Positions 1 through 10,443 of a DNA stretch of 34,558 nucleotides are shown here, in pieces. The notes below the pieces were generated by a model that was not told where the DNA came from, searched no databases, and saw only the letters and a program-made list of their open reading frames with translations. The DNA is from a virus. Lineage: Duplodnaviria; Heunggongvirae; Uroviricota; Caudoviricetes; Peduoviridae. The DNA lies in the IMG/VR virus record IMGVR_UViG_2585427767_000007. One strand, given 5' to 3'. A program made the position numbers and the translations under genes. Positions within the stretch are counted from its first letter, which is position 1. Each line of letters opens with the position of its first letter.

Positions 1-981
1 TTATAACGTCACTCCGCCTTTTAGTGGATTCAGAGCGACGGCATTTTGCAGATAGTCAGGCGCAAGGTGCGCATAGGCCATCGTCTGCTGAATGCTCGCA
101 TGTCCCAGAATCTGTTGCAGTGCGATTATATTGCCCCCATTCATCATGAAATGGCTTGCGAATGTATGCCGCAGGATGTGGGTTGCCTGATTGGGTGGTA
201 TATCAGGTTTCACTCTGCGTAAAATCCCGCAAAATTTCTCATAATCAACTTTGAATAATTTGGCGCTGGCCTCCTCTTTAACTTTTTTCTCCAGTTCCTC
301 AGAAATCGGCACGGTTCGCTTTTTACCGTTTTTGGTTTTCAGGAAGGTAACCCTGCAATTTGTAATCTGTGCTGGTTTTAGCGTGGCAACTTCCGTCCAT
401 CTTCCTCCAGTGCTCAGACATAAAAGCGCGACAAGTAAGTCATCACCAGCCAAAACATTTAACAGTTTTTCGATTTCTGCTTTTTCCAGGAACGTCATTT
501 CAGGGTTGGCCTCCGCCAGTGGCGGCAGTCCGTGAATTGGGTGTTGCCCGGAAAATTCATCCAATTGAATTAATTTTGTGAACATGCCGGATAATCGGTA
601 CATGTCACGGTTTATCGTTGCGGCACTGATACCATCACGTAGTCGCATGGAACGATAATCCATCAAAGCCCTTTTGCTCATCCTGCTCACTGGTATATCA
701 CCTATGCCGCTGATGGTTTTGAGTAGATGATTAAACTCTTTTGTTCCATGCCCGTGGTTTTGCCCGTGATATTTCCACCAGATGTCCAGCAACTCACTCA
801 AAGTCCGGCGGTCTGCTCGCTGGCCTCCCCATTCTTTCTGACTGGCATTGGCGATTGTGTATCGCTCAAATGCTAGTGCTTCAGCTTTTCTTTCGAATTT
901 CCTGCGGATGCGTTTTCCGTCGCGACCGCGAGGTCTAATGTCCACTTCATAGCGACCATCATCGAGCTTCTTAATTGCCAT
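1..981 (-). CDS. int: Phage integrase, P2-type tyrosine recombinase
   Basis: Minus-strand ORF ending at window position 1. C-terminal HxxR...Y catalytic region (HILRHTFASHF...AYAHL) typical of tyrosine recombinases. N-terminus MAIKKLDDGRYEVD resembles remembered P2 Int; ATG at 979-981 has a GGAGGG Shine-Dalgarno 8 nt upstream. An alternative in-frame ATG at 1009-1011 would add 10 aa. Confidence 0.9.
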   Translation of the reverse strand: MAIKKLDDGRYEVDIRPRGRDGKRIRRKFERKAEALAFERYTIANASQKEWGGQRADRRTLSELLDIWWKYHGQNHGHGTKEFNHLLKTISGIGDIPVSRMSKRALMDYRSMRLRDGISAATINRDMYRLSGMFTKLIQLDEFSGQHPIHGLPPLAEANPEMTFLEKAEIEKLLNVLAGDDLLVALLCLSTGGRWTEVATLKPAQITNCRVTFLKTKNGKKRTVPISEELEKKVKEEASAKLFKVDYEKFCGILRRVKPDIPPNQATHILRHTFASHFMMNGGNIIALQQILGHASIQQTMAYAHLAPDYLQNAVALNPLKGGVTL

Positions 982-1050
982 AAGAAAGCCCTCCGGCGCT
1001 GTATTCACCATCTTGGTAGCAAATGGTGAAAATGTAATCTTTATATAGAG

Positions 1051-1344
1051 TTAGCCAATCCTTTTCTCGGAGTGGTTGGACTCTGTTGACTCTGGCCCAA
1101 TGTGCGCGAGAGCCGGTGCGATTTGTCCTGCGTCCGGCGCGGTTTTATCTGTCATAAGCCATAGAGCATATTTTTGGAATGTGGGATGCATAGTGATTTT
1201 TAGCAAAGCTGTGCCACCGGGTTCAAAGTTTCCTCCTTCATATTTTTTAAGTGTGCTTAGCGGTAACTCTATGATTTCACAGAATTTTGATTGGCTTAGC
1301 CCTTCAGCCTCACGCAAGGCCTTAATCTTTTCGCTTAATTTCAT
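1051..1344 (-). CDS. C: Immunity repressor, P2 C-like HTH protein
   Basis: 97-aa ORF next to and co-oriented with int. N-terminal helix-turn-helix-like segment (LSQSKFCEIIELPLSTLKKYEGG); C-terminal ...QIAPALAH resembles remembered P2 C. ATG verified at 1342-1344. Confidence 0.8.
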   Translation of the reverse strand: MKLSEKIKALREAEGLSQSKFCEIIELPLSTLKKYEGGNFEPGGTALLKITMHPTFQKYALWLMTDKTAPDAGQIAPALAHIGPESTESNHSEKRIG

Positions 1345-1465
1345 TTGACATGGTGCCTATATAGGGACTAAATTCCCTCAAAACTGGAACCTATATAGGT
1401 TCCATTGATTTGAGAATAAACCAGCGTCTAAACGGTTTTGAGTGGTTTAGAAAGGGCTGGATCCT
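1345..1465. promoter_or_regulatory. Early control region between C and cox with candidate rightward promoter and two palindromic operators
   Basis: TTGACA at 1345-1350. CCTATATAGG occurs twice (1356-1365 and 1390-1399); the second lies inside a perfect 18-bp palindrome GGAACCTATATAGGTTCC (1386-1403). Position corresponds to the P2/186 face-to-face Pe/Pc switch region. Confidence 0.5.
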
Positions 1466-1753
1466 ATGAGGGTACCATATATGGACGCTGAAAATTATGT
1501 GATTCAGTATCCGCTTGATGCGGTTCATGTGGATAAATTTGCTGATTTATTAGGGAAGCCAAAGACAGCCGTCAGTGAAATGGTGAAGGCAAATAAATTA
1601 CCAATTATTGAATTGCGTGATCCTTGCAAACCGAAGGCTCGTGCCGGTGAAAAATGGGTTTTCATTCCTGAGTTTAATCGCGCTGTACGTGAGGCGTTTT
1701 ATAACCGACCGGTTGAACAGCGTGATGCATGGCTTTTGTGGATGGGGTTGTGA
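1466..1753 (+). CDS. cox: Cox-like excisionase/early repressor
   Basis: First gene transcribed rightward, diverging from C. Small basic protein; C-terminal ...RDAWLLWMGL resembles remembered P2 Cox. Start may instead be the ATG at 1481, which has a GAGGG Shine-Dalgarno. Confidence 0.7.
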   Translation: MRVPYMDAENYVIQYPLDAVHVDKFADLLGKPKTAVSEMVKANKLPIIELRDPCKPKARAGEKWVFIPEFNRAVREAFYNRPVEQRDAWLLWMGL

Positions 1754-3237: not shown

Positions 3238-3512
3238 GTATTCGTATTGAAATTGGCGAACGTTATGTCGTTACCAGTGACAGCTTTCAGTTTATTCTCC
3301 ACGAGAAAAAGAGAGCGGAAAGCGGTAAAAACGCCGGTCAGGAATGGCTGGCGGTGGTTGGTTATTATCCGAAATTAAGCCAGCTCGTTTCCGGCCTGAT
3401 GCATCACGATATTCTGACCGGAAGCGCAAAATCTTTTGCCGATTTAAACACGCAGGTTGAGCAGCTCAGCAAGCGTTGTTCAGAGGCGTTCTCCAGAGGA
3501 GCGTCTGAATGA
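3234..3512 (+). CDS. Hypothetical early protein (92 aa)
   Basis: ATG 3234 with GGAGAAC upstream; stop overlaps the start of the next gene. Confidence 0.6.
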   Translation: MSIRIEIGERYVVTSDSFQFILHEKKRAESGKNAGQEWLAVVGYYPKLSQLVSGLMHHDILTGSAKSFADLNTQVEQLSKRCSEAFSRGASE

Positions 3513-4516
3513 TTACTGATGCTCGTTGCCATACTGAAAATACCATCAATGTTATTTTTGTTTCAGGTGGAAAGGACAGCCTTGCTCAGTGGCTTGTCGC
3601 TATTGAAGAAAATGTACCCATATTGCCGGTTTTTGCTGATACGGGACATGAACATCCACAGACAATGAAATATCTGGATTATCTGGAAAAACGGCTTGGC
3701 CCAATTAAAAGGGTCAGGGCTGATTTTTCCTGCCGGATTGAATCAAAGCGCAAGTTTATCCAGACCAAATGGCCTGATTTGTTGGTTAACGATTGTGGAA
3801 TGTCGGAAGAAGAAGCGCACCAGCGCATCAGTTGTGCGCTGGAAATTCTCAAACCAACGGGTATCCCGTTTCTTGATTTGTGTCTGTGGAAGGGGCGTTT
3901 CCCATCAACCAAAGCCAGATTTTGCACATTTGAACTGAAACATGAACCCGTGCGTTCTCAGGTAATCCTGCCTTTACTCAATGAATTTGAGGAAGTGATT
4001 AGCTGGCAGGGAGTGCGTGCTCAGGAATCGCCATCACGCGCAGCTTTACCTGTCTGGGAAGAGGATGCAGACAACACCCCCGGATTGCATGTATATCGCC
4101 CGATTTTGCACTGGAAGCATGAAGATGTATTTGCAATAGCCAGAAGACATGACATTAAGCCAAATCCGTTATATCTGCAGGGGTGTGGCCGTGTTGGTTG
4201 TATGCCATGTATTCATGTCCGTAAATCTGAACTGGCAGAAATTTTTCGCCGGTGGCCGGAGGAAATAAAGCGGGTTGCTGAATGGGAACGACTGGTTGCG
4301 TCGTGCTCCCGTCGGGGAAATTCCACTTTTTTCCCATCCACACATGATCCGTTACGCGCAGAACGTCGTATTGAGGTTGTAACAGTCGAGGCATACGGAA
4401 TTGAAACCTACCATGACTGGACAATGACAACGCGTGGGGGTACTCAGTTTGATTTACTGGCTTCGGCGAATGATAAAGCCGTTTGCAGTAGTGTCTATGC
4501 CGGTGTATGTGAATGA
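3509..4516 (+). CDS. PAPS-reductase-like PP-loop protein (phosphoadenosine phosphosulfate reductase family)
   Basis: N-terminal VIFVSGGKDS PP-loop (SGGxDS) motif and C-terminal cysteine cluster (GCGRVGCMPC). Translationally coupled to the downstream gpA gene (ATGA overlap at 4513-4516). Confidence 0.75.
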   Translation: MITDARCHTENTINVIFVSGGKDSLAQWLVAIEENVPILPVFADTGHEHPQTMKYLDYLEKRLGPIKRVRADFSCRIESKRKFIQTKWPDLLVNDCGMSEEEAHQRISCALEILKPTGIPFLDLCLWKGRFPSTKARFCTFELKHEPVRSQVILPLLNEFEEVISWQGVRAQESPSRAALPVWEEDADNTPGLHVYRPILHWKHEDVFAIARRHDIKPNPLYLQGCGRVGCMPCIHVRKSELAEIFRRWPEEIKRVAEWERLVASCSRRGNSTFFPSTHDPLRAERRIEVVTVEAYGIETYHDWTMTTRGGTQFDLLASANDKAVCSSVYAGVCE

Positions 4517-7043: not shown

Positions 7044-7329
7044 AAATGTATGCGGTATGTATGGAAAACCGCACCATAACGAGAAAAATATCCAGTATGA
7101 ATCTGCTTAGATTAATAGATCGCAGAAGAGAGAAGAGGTATTGAGCCATGATGCCAATTTGTGAGATACCGAAGTGTTATGACAAAGATGCTTTTAATGT
7201 TACATTCCGTCATTACTCTTATTAATCATCTATTTCAATAGATTAGGATTAATCTGGCTATGTCATTGAAGATGCTCGATGTCTCGATATTTCTTAGCTA
7301 AAATAGGAGGCACTAAGGGAGAGGATGTT

Positions 7330-8388
7330 ATGTCTAAAATTTATGCTATTGACCTTTTTTGTGGTGCAGGTGGATTAACCCATGGTTTGATACAAGCAGG
7401 GATTGGTGTCATTGCTGGTATTGATTTAGATCCAGATTGCAGATGGGCGTATGAGCACAACAACAAAGCTAAATATATAAATTCAGATATTTGTGATGTA
7501 ACAGGTCAAGACCTTATGCGCTTGTGGCCAGAACAGGGAATAAGACTTCTTGCTGGTTGCGCCCCATGTCAGCCTTTTTCAAGTTATCGAAAAGGCAAGA
7601 TTGAATCTGCTGACGGCAAATGGAAACTCTTAGGTGAATTTGGACGGCTAGTCAAAGAATCTTCACCAGACTTGATAACCATGGAAAACGTACCAAGGTT
7701 ACAAAAGCATAAAATTTTCTTGGATTTTGTTAAAGACCTTAAGAAAGGTGGGTATAAGGTCTGGTATGGCGTCGTTGACTGTCAACAATATGGTGTGCCT
7801 CAGAAAAGGCAGCGATTAGTTTTACTGGCATCCAAGATCAGTGATGTTGTGTTGATTCCTCCAACACATTCAGAAGATAACTACGTAACAGTGAAAGATG
7901 CTATTTCTCATTTGCCAGAGATAGATTCAGGGCAAGCTGATGAGAAAGATCCATTACACGTTGCTCAGGGAATGAGCCAATTAAATCTCGAAAGGATTCG
8001 TCAATCAAAACCAGGTGGAACATGGAAGGATTGGGATCCTGAGTTGGTTGCTGCGTGCCATAAGAAAAGTAGTGGCAAAACTTACACAAGTGTATATGGA
8101 CGGATGAGATGGGATGAACCAGCTCCTACAATGACAACCCTATGTTTTGGTTTTGGTAATGGACGTTTTGGGCATCCTCAACAGGATAGGGCCATTTCTT
8201 TACGTGAGGCAGCTATCTTTCAAAGTTTTCCGGAGAACTATGTTTTTTCTGAACCAGGTGCAAAGATCACATTTGCAACAGTTGGTCGCTTGATTGGTAA
8301 TGCCGTTCCGGTAAAACTAGGTGAAGTTGTAGGAAAATCATTTATTAATAGTCTATCTGGGGGTAGTAGGAGAAATGGCGGAGCATAG
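7330..8388 (+). CDS. DNA (cytosine-5)-methyltransferase, Dcm-type
   Basis: Canonical C5-MTase motifs in canonical order: motif I FCGAGG (IDLFCGAGGLTHGL), motif IV PCQPFS (catalytic Cys), motif VI ENV, motif VIII QKRQR, motif X GNAV. ATG 7330 with GGGAGAGG Shine-Dalgarno; the track start at 7279 is a longer upstream extension. Lower GC than the phage backbone. Confidence 0.9.
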   Translation: MSKIYAIDLFCGAGGLTHGLIQAGIGVIAGIDLDPDCRWAYEHNNKAKYINSDICDVTGQDLMRLWPEQGIRLLAGCAPCQPFSSYRKGKIESADGKWKLLGEFGRLVKESSPDLITMENVPRLQKHKIFLDFVKDLKKGGYKVWYGVVDCQQYGVPQKRQRLVLLASKISDVVLIPPTHSEDNYVTVKDAISHLPEIDSGQADEKDPLHVAQGMSQLNLERIRQSKPGGTWKDWDPELVAACHKKSSGKTYTSVYGRMRWDEPAPTMTTLCFGFGNGRFGHPQQDRAISLREAAIFQSFPENYVFSEPGAKITFATVGRLIGNAVPVKLGEVVGKSFINSLSGGSRRNGGA

Positions 8389-10372
8389 CGAAGTTTTATC
8401 GCATGTTGATGAAAAAACACATACTTATGAGATGCTGGTTAGCTTGAGTGTTCTGGGGCATCTGGGGATCAATCTATATAGCAATGTTGCGGCAGTGATT
8501 ACGGAAACAGTAGCTAATGCATGGGATGCAGATGCTACAGAAGTGCATATAAAACTTTCTCCTGACAGAATCACTATTTCGGATAATGGTTTTGGAATGA
8601 CCATTCATGATATGAATTCGAAATATCTAACAGTTGGCTATCAAAAAAGAAATGATAAAAGCCAGCTATTAACTCCCAAGGGACGACTACCCATGGGCAG
8701 AAAAGGTATTGGTAAGTTATCTTTATTTTCTATTGCAAAAACTGTAACGGTTGAATCAATCAAGGATGGAGAACGACATGGTTTAGTTATGGAAGTTCCA
8801 AAAATAGAGCATGCAATCAAAAGTGGGGCTGGTAGATATTATCCAGAACCTTTGGATTCTGCTCAACTTTCTGTGAGTCAAGGAACATTAGTAACATTGC
8901 GTGATCTAAATCGATCTCGCATACCTGCCACTGCAACCGCTTTGCGTAAAAAGTTAGCAAGGCGTTTTTCTGTTATTGGTAGTAATGATTTTAGGGTCTT
9001 CGTTGATGGTGTAGAAGTAACAGCAAAGGAACGTGAGGACCTAAAACATGTTCAGTTCGTATGGGATATTAACTCGGGGGTAGATTTTAAAAAAGAATGT
9101 CCGGGGTTAATAACTGTAACTGACATTTCATCATTTTTGACAGAAAGTCAATTATTTAATCCTGAATGGAGCATTAAAGGGTGGATTGGTAGTATAAAAC
9201 AGCCTAGTCAGTTGAATACACCTGAAGGAAATCTAAATAGCATTGTTGTTTTATCTAGAGGTCGATTGTTTCAAGAGAACATTTTAGATGATATAAACGA
9301 TGGTGGGATATACACAAAGTATCTTACAGGGCAACTTGAGGCAGACTTCCTTGATACAGATGAAGATGAAGATATTGCAACAAGTGATAGACAACGAGTT
9401 GTTGAAGATGACCCTCGTTATCAATATTTGAAATCATTGGTTAAGATTGCCCTGAGAAAGGTTGCTGGTCAATGGAGCTCACTACGAGAAAAGCAAGGAG
9501 CAAAGGAAGCTAAAGAATCGAATCCGGTACTTGCGGAGTGGATCGGTTCATTAAAACCTGCTTCCCGAGGCTATGCAGAAAAAATGATCGCTCAAATTGA
9601 ATCGTTGCCTTTGGAGGATAAACCACAAGAGAAGAAGGAACTCTTTAAGCATGCAATTTTTGCATTTGAGCGCTTGCGTATTAAGGAAATGTCGCAGGAG
9701 CTAGCTGATGCTGTATTTTTTAATGCAGAAAAATTATTGCCATTGCTTGAGAAACAAGACGATTTAGAGGCAACATTATATTATGAGATAGCTAAGAGTC
9801 GTGTAGATGTTATTCAAAGCTTCAAAGGCCTAGTCGATAACGATGAAAAAGAAAAAGTATTGCAACGTTATCTTTTTGAACACCTTTGGTTATTAGACCC
9901 ATCATGGGAAAGAATTGATGGTTCTCCAATAATGGAGTCGCGTGTTAACCAAGAGTGGGACAAGATTGATGCTGGCCTGAGTGAAGAAGAGAAGAAAGGT
10001 CGTATGGATATAAAATATCGCTCATCTGCAGGTAAGCATATTATCATTGAACTTAAGAGAGCTAGCGTATTGACTTCTGTTGCAAATCTAGTCAGTCAGG
10101 GGAATAAGTACAGGCAGGCAGTAATTAAGTGTGCAAAAGCTGTTGACCCGGCCTCAACACCATCAATTGATGTGATTTTTGTCCTTGGTCGAGAGCCATC
10201 AGATTATGCGTTAGACCCATCTTATACTAACCTTCAGCTACAGTCAGTGAATGGTCGGATTGTTTATTATGATGGGCTAATTAATAGCGCACAGAGCTCG
10301 TATAGAGAATATACAGAGAGGCAGGCTACTGTTGCAAGGATTGCTGAAATCGTTAAAAAACTAGATGACTAG
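8375..10372 (+). CDS. GHKL/HATPase_c-type ATPase (665 aa) with C-terminal PD-(D/E)xK-like nuclease motif; candidate restriction/defence effector
   Basis: Bergerat-fold motifs near the N-terminus: N-box ETVANAWDA (ExxxNAxDA), G1 box DNGFGM, G2 box GRKGIGKLS. C-terminal region has D...ExK pattern (GRMDIKY...HIIIELKR). ATG 8375 overlaps the MTase stop by 14 nt with AGGAG upstream. Low GC. Confidence 0.8.
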   Translation: MAEHSEVLSHVDEKTHTYEMLVSLSVLGHLGINLYSNVAAVITETVANAWDADATEVHIKLSPDRITISDNGFGMTIHDMNSKYLTVGYQKRNDKSQLLTPKGRLPMGRKGIGKLSLFSIAKTVTVESIKDGERHGLVMEVPKIEHAIKSGAGRYYPEPLDSAQLSVSQGTLVTLRDLNRSRIPATATALRKKLARRFSVIGSNDFRVFVDGVEVTAKEREDLKHVQFVWDINSGVDFKKECPGLITVTDISSFLTESQLFNPEWSIKGWIGSIKQPSQLNTPEGNLNSIVVLSRGRLFQENILDDINDGGIYTKYLTGQLEADFLDTDEDEDIATSDRQRVVEDDPRYQYLKSLVKIALRKVAGQWSSLREKQGAKEAKESNPVLAEWIGSLKPASRGYAEKMIAQIESLPLEDKPQEKKELFKHAIFAFERLRIKEMSQELADAVFFNAEKLLPLLEKQDDLEATLYYEIAKSRVDVIQSFKGLVDNDEKEKVLQRYLFEHLWLLDPSWERIDGSPIMESRVNQEWDKIDAGLSEEEKKGRMDIKYRSSAGKHIIIELKRASVLTSVANLVSQGNKYRQAVIKCAKAVDPASTPSIDVIFVLGREPSDYALDPSYTNLQLQSVNGRIVYYDGLINSAQSSYREYTERQATVARIAEIVKKLDD

Positions 10373-10443
10373 TTTTTAACACTTAAGGATGCCTATATAT
10401 GCTGCATGGATCTGCATGACCATTTGAATAATTTTTTTGTTAA

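What the first reader, a model, noticed from the sequence alone, without database searches (positions are those of the whole stretch)
1345..1465. Lysis-lysogeny switch region with two CCTATATAGG operators, one inside a perfect 18-bp palindrome
Between the divergent repressor and cox genes there are two copies of CCTATATAGG spaced 34 bp apart, the second embedded in GGAACCTATATAGGTTCC, next to a TTGACA -35 element. Two operator copies about three helical turns apart suggest cooperative repressor binding. Palindromic operators differ from the direct-repeat operators I recall for P2 C, suggesting a different immunity specificity.
Basis: partly seen in the sequence, partly recalled or inferred. 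Interest (0 to 1): 0.45.

Follow-up and report, generated by a model that had tools for sequence, protein, structure and literature searches.

The report
Repressor binding sites of a P2-like prophage
The two CCTATATAGG copies are almost certainly the binding sites through which this common P2-like E. coli prophage's small repressor shuts off its lytic genes; this is an ordinary kind of phage switch, with the modest twist that each site is a palindrome in a repressor family known for binding non-palindromic repeats.

Summary
CCTATATAGG occurs exactly twice (1356-1365, 1390-1399), 34 bp apart, flanking the -10 of a strong promoter (TTGACA 1345-1350, TAAATT 1369-1374). The promoter lies between a 97-aa P2-type C repressor gene and cox. 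The second copy sits in a perfect 20-bp palindrome (1385-1404).

The layout is collinear with phage WPhi, whose operator was mapped experimentally: two 10-bp repeats, 34 bp apart, flanking the -10 of Pe. The repeat sequence differs, and C is 57% identical.

Four lines of evidence point to C operators:
- Both sites are essentially invariant in 37 viral contigs and about 97-99% of 420 E. coli prophages, while the adjacent -10 end varies in about 25%.
- Virulent phage R18C differs from the class consensus over 721 bp only by one substitution in each site. Clear-plaque mutant L-413C also has one in each.
- CCTATATAGG-like pairs co-occur with the recognition-helix motif S-T-L-x-K-Y-E across Enterobacterales and Pseudomonas, at spacings of 23-34 bp.
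- The sites track C, not Cox.

This is a new member of a known kind. The dyad symmetry suggests conventional symmetric dimer binding. A conserved hairpin centred on the second site is a separate feature. No binding experiment exists for this class in the literature I could reach.

The parts
1..1011 (-). Integrase gene (336 aa). It lies downstream of C in the lysogenic operon.
   Evidence: ORF list. The homologous position is annotated int in L-413C, WPhi and P2.
1051..1344 (-). C immunity repressor, 97 aa, P2-C family. Predicted recognition helix L29-S-T-L-K-K-Y-E36.
   Evidence: Pfam HTH_3. Full-length match to the P2 C structure 2XCJ/2L49, E=3.6e-21. 57% identical to WPhi C with no gaps. 96/97 identical to L-413C C.
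1345..1350 (+). Early promoter Pe, -35 hexamer TTGACA.
   Evidence: Promoter scan, 10 of 12 matches. Aligns with the WPhi and P2 Pe -35.
1352..1369 (.). Operator O1: GGTG-CCTATATAGG-GACT (core 1356-1365), in the -35/-10 spacer. Imperfect palindrome, 7 of 9 pairs. Its right flank runs into the -10.
   Evidence: Same position as WPhi O1. The 33-bp segment containing it is exact in 407 of 420 E. coli prophages. Mutated in R18C (1364 G>T) and L-413C (1356 C>A).
1369..1374 (+). Pe -10 hexamer TAAATT. The transcription start is inferred near 1381.
   Evidence: Aligns with the WPhi -10 TATATT. Positions 1373/1374 are polymorphic in natural prophages.
1386..1403 (.). Operator O2: GGAA-CCTATATAGG-TTCC (core 1390-1399). 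Perfect palindrome, 20 bp if 1385-1404 is taken. It lies just downstream of the inferred Pe start.
   Evidence: Same position as WPhi O2. The 35-bp segment is matched in 416 of 420 E. coli prophages, 415 at 99% identity or more. Mutated in R18C (1390 C>T) and L-413C (1402 C>A).
1377..1414 (.). Extended dyad or hairpin centred on O2: outer stem CUCAAA/UUUGAG plus inner stem UGGAACCU/AGGUUCCA. Conserved as a structure, not as a sequence, in the WPhi/window clade. Its role is unknown; it could be a leader hairpin in the Pe and/or Pc transcripts.
   Evidence: RNA MFE -16.4 kcal/mol, z=-5.3. WPhi equivalent z=-3.8. 76% of 41 related switches have z<-2, against 7% of control segments.
1481..1753 (+). 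cox (90 aa), first gene of the early operon. Shine-Dalgarno GAGGG at 1468-1472. The longer ORF from 1466 is probably not the real start.
   Evidence: Pfam Phage_Cox, 1.2e-23. 82% identical to WPhi Cox from residue 1. Annotated from this start in R18C, vB_YpM_50, P2_AC1 and FSL SP-004.

Best explanation
**What it is.** O1 (1352-1369) and O2 (1386-1403) are the operator of the prophage's 97-aa P2-type C immunity repressor.

**How it works.**
- C is made from the leftward lysogenic operon (C-int).
- It binds both sites, which bracket the -10 hexamer and start site of the rightward early promoter Pe.
- This blocks transcription of cox-B-A. The block maintains lysogeny and gives immunity to superinfecting phages of the same class.
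- Both sites are needed, as in WPhi and P2.
- The sites define an immunity class distinct from P2, P2 Hy dis and WPhi. The class is shared with L-413C, R18C, FSL SP-004 and about 8% of complete E. coli genomes.

**Inferred binding mode.** Each site is a dyad-symmetric 18-mer, consensus (G/T)G-n-n-CCTAT|ATAGG-n-n-C(C/A). It would be bound by one symmetric C dimer using both recognition helices specifically. Two dimers would then occupy four half-sites and occlude or bend the promoter.

**Shown and inferred.** Shown here: sequence anatomy, homology, conservation, natural mutants and covariation. Inferred: physical binding, stoichiometry and dyad-symmetric contacts.
For: 1. **Same architecture as a mapped operator.** WPhi C binds two 10-bp repeats (TATTGGTGAC) 34 bp apart centre to centre, flanking the -10 of Pe. 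Mutating both abolishes repression (PMC1904268, PMC1904263). The window aligns collinearly: same -35, O1 in the spacer, -10, TCCC..TCAAAA, and O2 34 bp on. C is 57% identical to WPhi C with no gaps. It matches the P2 C crystal structure over its full length.

2. **Conservation within the class.** 34 of 37 viral-contig members are identical across 1340-1424. In 420 E. coli prophages the O1 segment is exact in 407 and the O2 segment is matched in 416, 415 of them at 99% identity or more. About 25% differ somewhere in the 66-bp promoter-operator core, and all three such variants I sampled differ at 1373/1374, the end of the -10.

3. **Natural genetics.** R18C is published as virulent (PMC6823313). 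It differs from the class consensus in 721 bp only at 1364 (O1 core) and 1390 (O2 core), with wild-type C. The chance that two random changes hit one core each is about 4e-4 (my arithmetic). L-413C is a clear-plaque mutant (PMC3448106). It has 1356 C>A in the O1 core and 1402 C>A at a conserved O2 flank position, again with intact C. None of the 37 viral-contig members carries either change, and the O1 and O2 segments are exact in about 97-99% of the E. coli prophages. A third isolated phage, HQ103, carries a 7-bp frameshift deletion in C instead.

4. **Covariation with the recognition helix.** Among 100 non-redundant switches, all 12 with helix-3 ST[LY]KKY[ED] have at least two CCTATATAGG-like sites. 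The other 5 with two sites have S/N-T-L/V-x-K-Y-E. The remaining 83 do not have two such sites (Fisher p=6e-12, not corrected for phylogeny). The set includes Pseudomonas prophages with C only 41-45% identical.

5. **The sites track C, not Cox.** Cox is 82% identical between the window and WPhi, while the operators share no core.

6. **Dyad symmetry.** Both halves of the core are conserved at both sites. The left flank is lineage-specific but shared by O1 and O2. The O2 right flank mirrors it, covarying as GGAA/TTCC, TGCT/AGCA, TGTT/AACA and GGAT/ATCC. The P2 C dimer is symmetric, with recognition helices 26 A apart as in P22 c2 (PMC2995052).
Against: - No binding, footprint or reporter data for this immunity class were found in the accessible literature. 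Karlsson 2006, Garcia 2008 and Liu 1999 could not be read.
- The phenotypes of R18C and L-413C are taken from papers that do not attribute them to these substitutions.
- The helix-motif association is inflated by shared ancestry.
- Some relatives have non-palindromic core variants (CCTATTTAGG, CCCATATAGG), so strict dyad symmetry is not required.
- The outer palindrome at O2 could owe its symmetry to the conserved hairpin rather than to protein contacts.
- O1-O2 spacing varies out of helical phase, which argues against a rigid cooperative geometry.
Confidence: 0.85

Rival explanations
1. The long palindrome at the second copy is primarily a transcript or DNA structural element. It would be a 5' leader hairpin or attenuator in the Pe and/or Pc RNAs, which overlap here. 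The CCTATATAGG inside it would then be incidental to repressor binding, or only the first copy would be a true operator.
For: A hairpin starting 1-5 nt after the Pe -10 is conserved as a structure with differing stem sequences in the WPhi/window clade: 76% have z<-2, against 7% of controls. It is present in WPhi, P37 and SW5, where O2 itself is not palindromic. In the window the hairpin plus short U runs was picked up as terminator-like. The leftward strand folds better in 28 cases against 13 (p=0.014). In WPhi, removing the phage sequence flanking the minimal promoter/operator (upstream of -35 and downstream of O2) raised expression about 100-fold (PMC1904263).
Against: The 10-bp core is repeated exactly at O1, which is not in a hairpin. 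The O2 core is conserved in sequence across lineages while the hairpin stems are not. Both lytic isolates carry a change at O2 as well as at O1. O2 occupies the same position as the experimentally proven WPhi O2. The two roles can coexist. As an exclusive explanation this is unlikely; as an additional layer it is plausible (about 0.5).
Confidence: 0.1
2. The repeats are bound by another protein (Cox, Int, IHF or another host factor) rather than by C.
For: Cox also acts in this intergenic region, repressing Pc. P2-family switches bend DNA. The A/T-rich centre TATATA would be easily bent.
Against: Cox is 82% identical between the window and WPhi, yet the repeats are entirely different. The motif covaries with the C recognition helix. 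The sites flank the Pe -10, where C acts in P2 and WPhi. Cox acts at Pc, which in WPhi starts about 60 nt beyond O2 (PMC1904263).
Confidence: 0.03
3. The two copies are a chance repeat in an A/T-rich promoter region and have no function.
For: The motif is short and A/T-rich. A one-mismatch copy occurs by chance at 10392.
Against: 0.24 matches are expected and none of 100 shuffles reached the observed count. Both copies are exactly conserved in hundreds of prophages while neighbouring bases vary. The pair recurs in lineages as distant as Pseudomonas.
Confidence: 0.01

Closest known systems
Phage WPhi C repressor and its O1/O2 operator (P2-like immunity class III; Liu & Haggard-Ljungquist 1999; PMC1904263, PMC1904268)
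   Same: - 97-aa C with no alignment gaps, 57% identical.
- Two 10-bp repeats 34 bp apart centre to centre, flanking the Pe -10.
- -35 TTGACA abutting the C start codon.
- Conserved TCCC..TCAAAA after the -10.
- A hairpin centred on O2.
- Cox 82% identical.
   Different: - The half-site is CCTATATAGG (palindromic), not TATTGGTGAC (non-palindromic).
- The recognition helix is LSTLKKYE rather than LGTVKNYE.
- Binding has not been tested for this class.
Phage P2 C repressor and O1/O2 (PMC2995052; annotated in NC_001895)
   Same: - Homologous repressor: full-length match to the crystal structure, E=3.6e-21.
- Two repeated sites flanking the Pe -10.
- C-int and cox-B-A operons arranged face to face.
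   Different: - The P2 half-sites are 8 bp (GTTTAGAT), 22 bp apart and non-palindromic.
- C is only 42-43% identical.
- No leader hairpin stands out by eye in the P2 sequence (not folded), and it is largely absent in the loci with C below 50% identity.
P2 Hy dis C and its operator (Renberg-Eriksson 2001; PMC1904268)
   Same: Same repressor family and the same switch logic.
   Different: The Hy dis half-sites are 8 bp, 26 bp apart, and flank the -35 rather than the -10. A C of the presumed Hy dis type (phage 720R8) is 46% identical.
Classical palindromic-operator HTH repressors (P22 c2, 434, lambda cI N-terminal domains)
   Same: Each site is a 14-20 bp dyad suited to a symmetric HTH dimer. The P2 C dimer superimposes on P22 c2, with the same 26 A spacing between recognition helices (PMC2995052).
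   Different: These are a different protein family: two-domain, RecA-cleavable repressors with three or more adjacent operators. Here a single-domain 97-aa protein uses two separated sites and is not known to be SOS-inducible.
Phage 186 CI switch
   Same: P2-like phage with face-to-face promoters. CI recognises inverted repeats.
   Different: CI is about twice the size, unrelated in architecture, and has CII and distant looping sites. The window has a P2-type C, not a CI.

Membership tests
P2-type C/Cox transcriptional switch | Immunity repressor of about 100 aa homologous to P2 C | tested here: met
   Full-length match to P2 C (2XCJ/2L49), E=3.6e-21. HTH_3. 18 invariant columns shared with 13 family members, including the GQIAPAL motif.
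P2-type C/Cox transcriptional switch | Divergently transcribed cox as the first early gene, with int downstream of C | tested here: met
   Phage_Cox 1.2e-23. Gene order int-C / cox-orf78-B matches L-413C, WPhi and P2.
P2-type C/Cox transcriptional switch | Two repeated repressor sites spanning the early promoter Pe | tested here: met
   Two exact 10-mers flank the -10 of the only sigma-70-like promoter in the region.
P2-type C/Cox transcriptional switch | Convergent weak promoter Pc downstream of Pe | tested here: inconclusive
   No consensus match on the minus strand. Pc is known to be weak. By WPhi homology it should start about 60 nt right of O2, roughly 1455-1465 (PMC1904263).
P2-type C/Cox transcriptional switch | C physically binds the repeats and represses Pe | not testable with these tools
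   Only indirect evidence is available: conservation, natural mutants and covariation.
P2-C family hallmark 'binder of non-palindromic direct repeats' (Massad 2010) | The half-sites are non-palindromic | tested here: not met
   The 10-bp core is a perfect palindrome. O2 is a perfect 20-bp palindrome and O1 has 7 of 9 pairs. The two units are nevertheless also in direct repeat.
WPhi immunity class (class III) | C at least 95% identical within the class, and operator TATTGGTGAC | tested here: not met
   C is 57% identical. The operator core is different.
L-413C / R18C / FSL SP-004 immunity class | C at least 95% identical and the same C-cox spacer | tested here: met
   C is 96/97 identical. The switch is 99-100% identical.
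186-type CI/Apl/CII switch | CI of about 190 aa plus a cII gene | tested here: not met
   The repressor is 97 aa and of the P2-C type. cox is followed by an orf78-like ORF and B.

The most novel reading that the evidence does not exclude
In this widespread clade of P2-type C repressors (helix-3 S-T-L-x-K-Y-E), each operator is a complete dyad-symmetric 18-bp site. It would be bound conventionally by a symmetric dimer using both recognition helices. The non-palindromic direct-repeat binding reported for P2, WPhi and Hy dis would then be a derived or degenerate state of an ancestrally palindromic operator, which would resolve the symmetry paradox raised by the P2 C crystal structure. As corollaries, R18C and L-413C would be natural double-operator virulent mutants. 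The conserved hairpin centred on O2 would be an undescribed RNA-level layer of the Pe/Pc switch.
Probability: 0.5. Interest if true: 0.45.

Novelty: new member of a known kind. Interest (0 to 1): 0.3.

Why it matters
This immunity class sits in about 8% of complete E. coli genomes. It also includes the plague-diagnostic phage L-413C and the lytic phage R18C.

- **Phage behaviour.** Knowing the operator explains, as a testable hypothesis, why those two phages are lytic: one hit in each operator. It also predicts which lysogens will or will not exclude them, which is useful for phage typing and therapy.
- **Mechanism.** A palindromic-operator branch of the P2 C family is a natural comparison for the long-noted oddity that the symmetric P2 C dimer binds asymmetric direct repeats.
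- **Scale.** None of this changes the basic picture of the P2-type switch.

Tried and rejected
- **Papers not held.** Three key papers could not be read: Karlsson 2006 on immunity classes, Garcia 2008 on L-413C and Liu 1999 on the WPhi switch. I therefore cannot say which numbered immunity class this is, or whether the repeats were already pointed out as predicted operators.
- **Motif search in the literature.** Full-text search for CCTATATAGG returned only unrelated hits such as eukaryotic CArG boxes and primers. A search for palindromic operators of P2-like C repressors returned only the P2 C structure paper.
- **Covariation test.** RNAalifold on a MAFFT alignment of 24 leader segments gave no consensus structure, because loop lengths vary and the window row was misaligned. 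I fell back on per-sequence folding z-scores with a downstream control segment.
- **Remote third operator.** The only near-match (10392, CCTATATATG) is single, carries a mismatch at a conserved G, and lies in AT-rich intergenic DNA after a cargo gene. I rejected it as chance.
- **L-413C's -10 change.** I first counted 1373 T>C as a third selected mutation. I withdrew this after finding 1373/1374 polymorphic in natural prophages.
- **Fixed three-turn spacing.** I rejected a fixed three-turn spacing as a requirement, because relatives use 23-34 bp.
- **Structure prediction.** Not run. The sequence match to the solved P2 C structure is already full-length, and the tool cannot model a dimer on DNA.

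Full report
**1. The observation**

- CCTATATAGG occurs at 1356-1365 and 1390-1399 and nowhere else in the 34.6-kb window. With one mismatch allowed there are 3 matches against 0.24 expected, and none of 100 shuffles reached that.
- The second copy lies in a perfect palindrome. It is 20 bp long, not 18: TGGAACCTATATAGGTTCCA at 1385-1404.
- The first copy lies in an imperfect palindrome, GGTGCCTATATAGGGACT, with 7 of 9 pairs.
- TTGACA (1345-1350) touches the start codon of the leftward 97-aa gene. With TAAATT (1369-1374) it forms the only sigma-70-like promoter found between 1000 and 1800.
- So one copy sits in the -35/-10 spacer and the other just downstream of the inferred start site.

**2. 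What the element is**

- The leftward gene (1051-1344) is an HTH_3 protein. The rightward gene is a Phage_Cox protein.
- The gene order is int-C / cox-orf78-B...A, as in P2-like phages.
- The repressor matches the solved P2 C structure over its whole length, E=3.6e-21.
- It is 42-43% identical to P2 C, 46% to the C of 720R8 (presumed P2 Hy dis type) and 57% to WPhi C, with no gaps.
- The 721-bp switch is 99-100% identical to that of Yersinia phage L-413C, phage R18C, Salmonella phage FSL SP-004 and others.
- It occurs once, on the chromosome, in 420 of 5,426 complete E. coli genomes.
- By alignment with WPhi Cox (82% identity from residue 1), cox most likely starts at 1481 rather than 1466 (annotations).

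**3. Homology to an experimentally mapped operator**

- The Haggard-Ljungquist laboratory showed that WPhi C binds two 10-bp direct repeats (TATTGGTGAC), 34 bp apart centre to centre, flanking the -10 of Pe.
- A mutation in one repeat is tolerated, while mutations in both abolish repression. Shortening the spacing by 6 or 10 bp does not impair repression in vivo (PMC1904268, PMC1904263).
- The WPhi sequence reads TTGACA-GTAACC-TATTGGTGAC-TTATAT-TCCCGTCAAAAGGTTGTG-TATTGGTGAC.
- The window reads TTGACA-TGGTG-CCTATATAGG-GAC-TAAATT-CCCTCAAAACTGGAA-CCTATATAGG.
- The layout is the same element for element. Only the repeat sequence differs.

**4. Four independent lines say these are C's operators**

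*(a) Conservation.*
- 34 of 37 class members from viral contigs are identical across 1340-1424, so the window is the class consensus.
- Among the 420 E. coli prophages, the 33-bp segment holding the -35 and O1 is exact in 407. The 35-bp segment holding O2 is matched in 416, 415 of them at 99% identity or more.
- About a quarter differ somewhere in the 66-bp promoter-operator core. All three variants I sampled differ at 1373/1374, the 3' end of the -10.

*(b) Natural genetics.*
- R18C, published as a virulent P2-like phage (PMC6823313), has a wild-type C. It differs from the class consensus in 721 bp at just two positions: 1364 G>T in the O1 core and 1390 C>T in the O2 core. By my arithmetic, the chance of one random hit in each 10-bp core is about 4e-4.
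- L-413C, a clear-plaque mutant of L-413 (PMC3448106), also has an intact C. It carries 1356 C>A in the O1 core and 1402 C>A at a conserved flank position of O2. None of the 37 viral-contig members carries either change.
- L-413C's background divergence from the window is about 1 difference per 150-200 bp.
- A third isolated phage, HQ103, has a 7-bp frameshift deletion in C instead.
- This one-hit-in-each-site pattern is what the WPhi and P2 experiments predict for loss of repression.

*(c) Covariation.*
- I compared 100 non-redundant C-cox spacers from phages, viral contigs and species-representative genomes.
- Every one of the 12 whose C has helix-3 ST[LY]KKY[ED] carries at least two sites within two mismatches of CCTATATAGG.
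- The only 5 others with two sites have the near-identical helix S/N-T-L/V-x-K-Y-E. The remaining 83 do not have two such sites (Fisher p=6e-12, uncorrected for shared ancestry).
- The motif persists in Pseudomonas prophages whose C is only 41-45% identical.
- The WPhi-like helix (LGT[LV]KNYE) goes with ...TGAC-type sites instead.
- In P2 numbering, the helix positions that differ include residues the crystal-structure paper identified as base-contacting (PMC2995052; alignment).

*(d) The sites follow C, not Cox.* Cox is 82% identical between the window and WPhi, while the operators share no core.

**5. Anatomy of a site**

- Across 16 lineages the core CC-TATATA-GG is nearly invariant at both O1 and O2, and both halves are conserved.
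- The four bases to the left are lineage-specific but shared by O1 and O2 of the same phage (GGAA/GGAA, TGCT/TGCT, TGTT/TGTT).
- At O2 the right flank mirrors the left (GGAA..TTCC, TGCT..AGCA, TGTT..AACA, GGAT..ATCC). At O1 the right flank runs into the -10 hexamer.
- O1 always begins 4-5 bp after the -35.
- O1-O2 spacing is 34, 33, 32, 29, 25, 24 or 23 bp in different lineages. It is therefore not locked to helical phase, which agrees with the WPhi deletion experiments.

**6. Mechanism**

- The best-supported reading is that C, made from the leftward operon, occupies O1 and O2 and shuts Pe by covering the -10 and the start site. This maintains lysogeny and confers class-specific immunity.
- I infer that each 18-bp dyad takes one symmetric C dimer. 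The P2 C dimer is symmetric, with recognition helices 26 A apart, as in the palindrome-binder P22 c2 (PMC2995052). Two dimers would then fill four specific half-sites.
- In P2, four protected patches were seen by footprinting (PMC1904263). The structure paper proposes that only one helix of each dimer reads the 8-bp repeat specifically (PMC2995052).
- Binding, stoichiometry and symmetric contacts have not been demonstrated for this class.

**7. A separate feature under the same palindrome**

- The window folds into a strong hairpin at 1377-1414 with O2 at its apex (-16.4 kcal/mol, z=-5.3).
- WPhi has the same kind of hairpin (z=-3.8) although its O2 is not palindromic.
- Among 41 non-redundant switches with C at least 50% identical to the window's, 76% have z<-2, against 7% of control segments. 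The stems differ in sequence (CCCTCATTGG/CCAATGAGGG, CCCTAACC/GGTTAGGG, GCTTGGTGG/CCATCAAGC and others).
- More distant, P2-proper-like classes largely lack it.
- Because WPhi Pe and Pc transcripts overlap by 82 nt (PMC1904263), both RNAs would contain it. The leftward strand folds somewhat better (28 vs 13, p=0.014).
- Its function is unknown. It explains part of why the palindrome at O2 is so long, and it is a candidate extra layer of the switch.

**8. Comparison and novelty**

- This is a P2-type C/Cox switch of the L-413C/R18C immunity class. Its closest characterised relative is WPhi.
- It is not a member of the WPhi, P2 or Hy dis immunity classes, and it is not a 186-type CI switch.
- The 2007 and 2010 papers state that operators had been located only for P2, Hy dis and WPhi, and that all seven known classes seem to recognise direct repeats.
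- This class is common enough that it was almost certainly among those seven, so the repeats may have been noted before. I could not read that paper.
- I found no mention in the accessible literature of three things: the dyad symmetry of the units, its conservation across a wide clade, and the double-operator changes in R18C and L-413C.
- I therefore rate it a new member of a known kind, with a modestly interesting mechanistic twist.

**9. Limits**

- All functional claims rest on comparative and natural-variant evidence.
- The phenotypes of R18C and L-413C come from papers that do not link them to these substitutions.
- The association statistics are not phylogenetically corrected.
- Pc could not be located by consensus.
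- The E. coli counts rely on megablast word-size behaviour rather than a full tabulation of variants.

Noticed in passing
window 1377-1414 (and the equivalent position in WPhi L002:24089-24118, P37, SW5 and about 30 other loci): A hairpin or extended dyad centred on O2 begins 1-5 nt after the Pe -10. It is conserved as a structure, with stem sequences that differ between lineages. It is present in 76% of 41 related switches, against 7% of control segments, and largely absent from P2-proper-like classes. The leftward (Pc/C mRNA) strand folds slightly better. Its function is unknown.
   Followed up: partly
window 1373-1374: The last two bases of the Pe -10 (TAAATT) are polymorphic in natural prophages, giving TAAATC or TAAACC. 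About 25% of 420 E. coli prophages differ somewhere in the 66-bp core, and all three sampled variants were at these positions. Losing the final T should weaken Pe, so many resident prophages may be poorly inducible.
   Followed up: partly
window 1466-1480: The longest cox ORF starts at 1466, and L-413C is annotated that way. Alignment with WPhi Cox and a GAGGG Shine-Dalgarno at 1468-1472 favour the start at 1481.
   Followed up: yes
window 1067: The window's C has Glu93 where 31 of 37 viral-contig class members and all the phage records compared have Ala93. The residue lies in the C-terminal tail, which in P2 C is disordered and dispensable.
   Followed up: partly
window 7279-10372: A low-GC (36-43%) two-gene cargo sits between the replication gene A region and the portal gene. 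It comprises a C-5 cytosine DNA methyltransferase (PF00145) and a 665-aa protein matching PADLOC Type II restriction enzyme models (1e-94), with a GHKL ATPase domain. It looks like a restriction-modification moron, at the position where P2 carries tin/old (from memory).
   Followed up: partly
window 3509-4516: A 335-aa PAPS-reductase-domain protein (PF01507, with weaker SspD/BrxP/DndC-like PADLOC hits) lies in the early operon just upstream of gene A. The P2 and WPhi stretches I looked at show no such gene before A.
   Followed up: no
window 10392-10401: A single one-mismatch copy, CCTATATATG, lies in AT-rich intergenic DNA just after the restriction-enzyme-like gene, next to a terminator-like hairpin (AAAAACTAGATGACTAGTTTTT). 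It is probably chance, not a remote operator.
   Followed up: yes
L004:622-653 (Yersinia phage P37); also L065, L068, L084: In some heteroimmune relatives the two repeat units flanking the Pe -10 are in inverted, not direct, orientation. An example is TTAATGAC-N16-GTCATTAA in P37. Repeat orientation is therefore not fixed in the P2-C family.
   Followed up: no
L015:520-600 (Arsenophonus nasoniae plasmid pArsFIN13): A P2-like element annotated as a plasmid carries CCTAATTAGG and CCTATATAGG 23 bp apart at its Pe. Its C gene appears split or frameshifted: the tblastn match is in two pieces and only a 56-aa product is annotated.
   Followed up: no
L146 (Yersinia phage HQ103), equivalent to window 1179-1185: A 7-bp deletion frameshifts the C repressor gene of this isolated phage, while both operators are intact. 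This is the classic repressor-null route to a clear-plaque phage, in contrast with the operator route seen in R18C and L-413C.
   Followed up: partly
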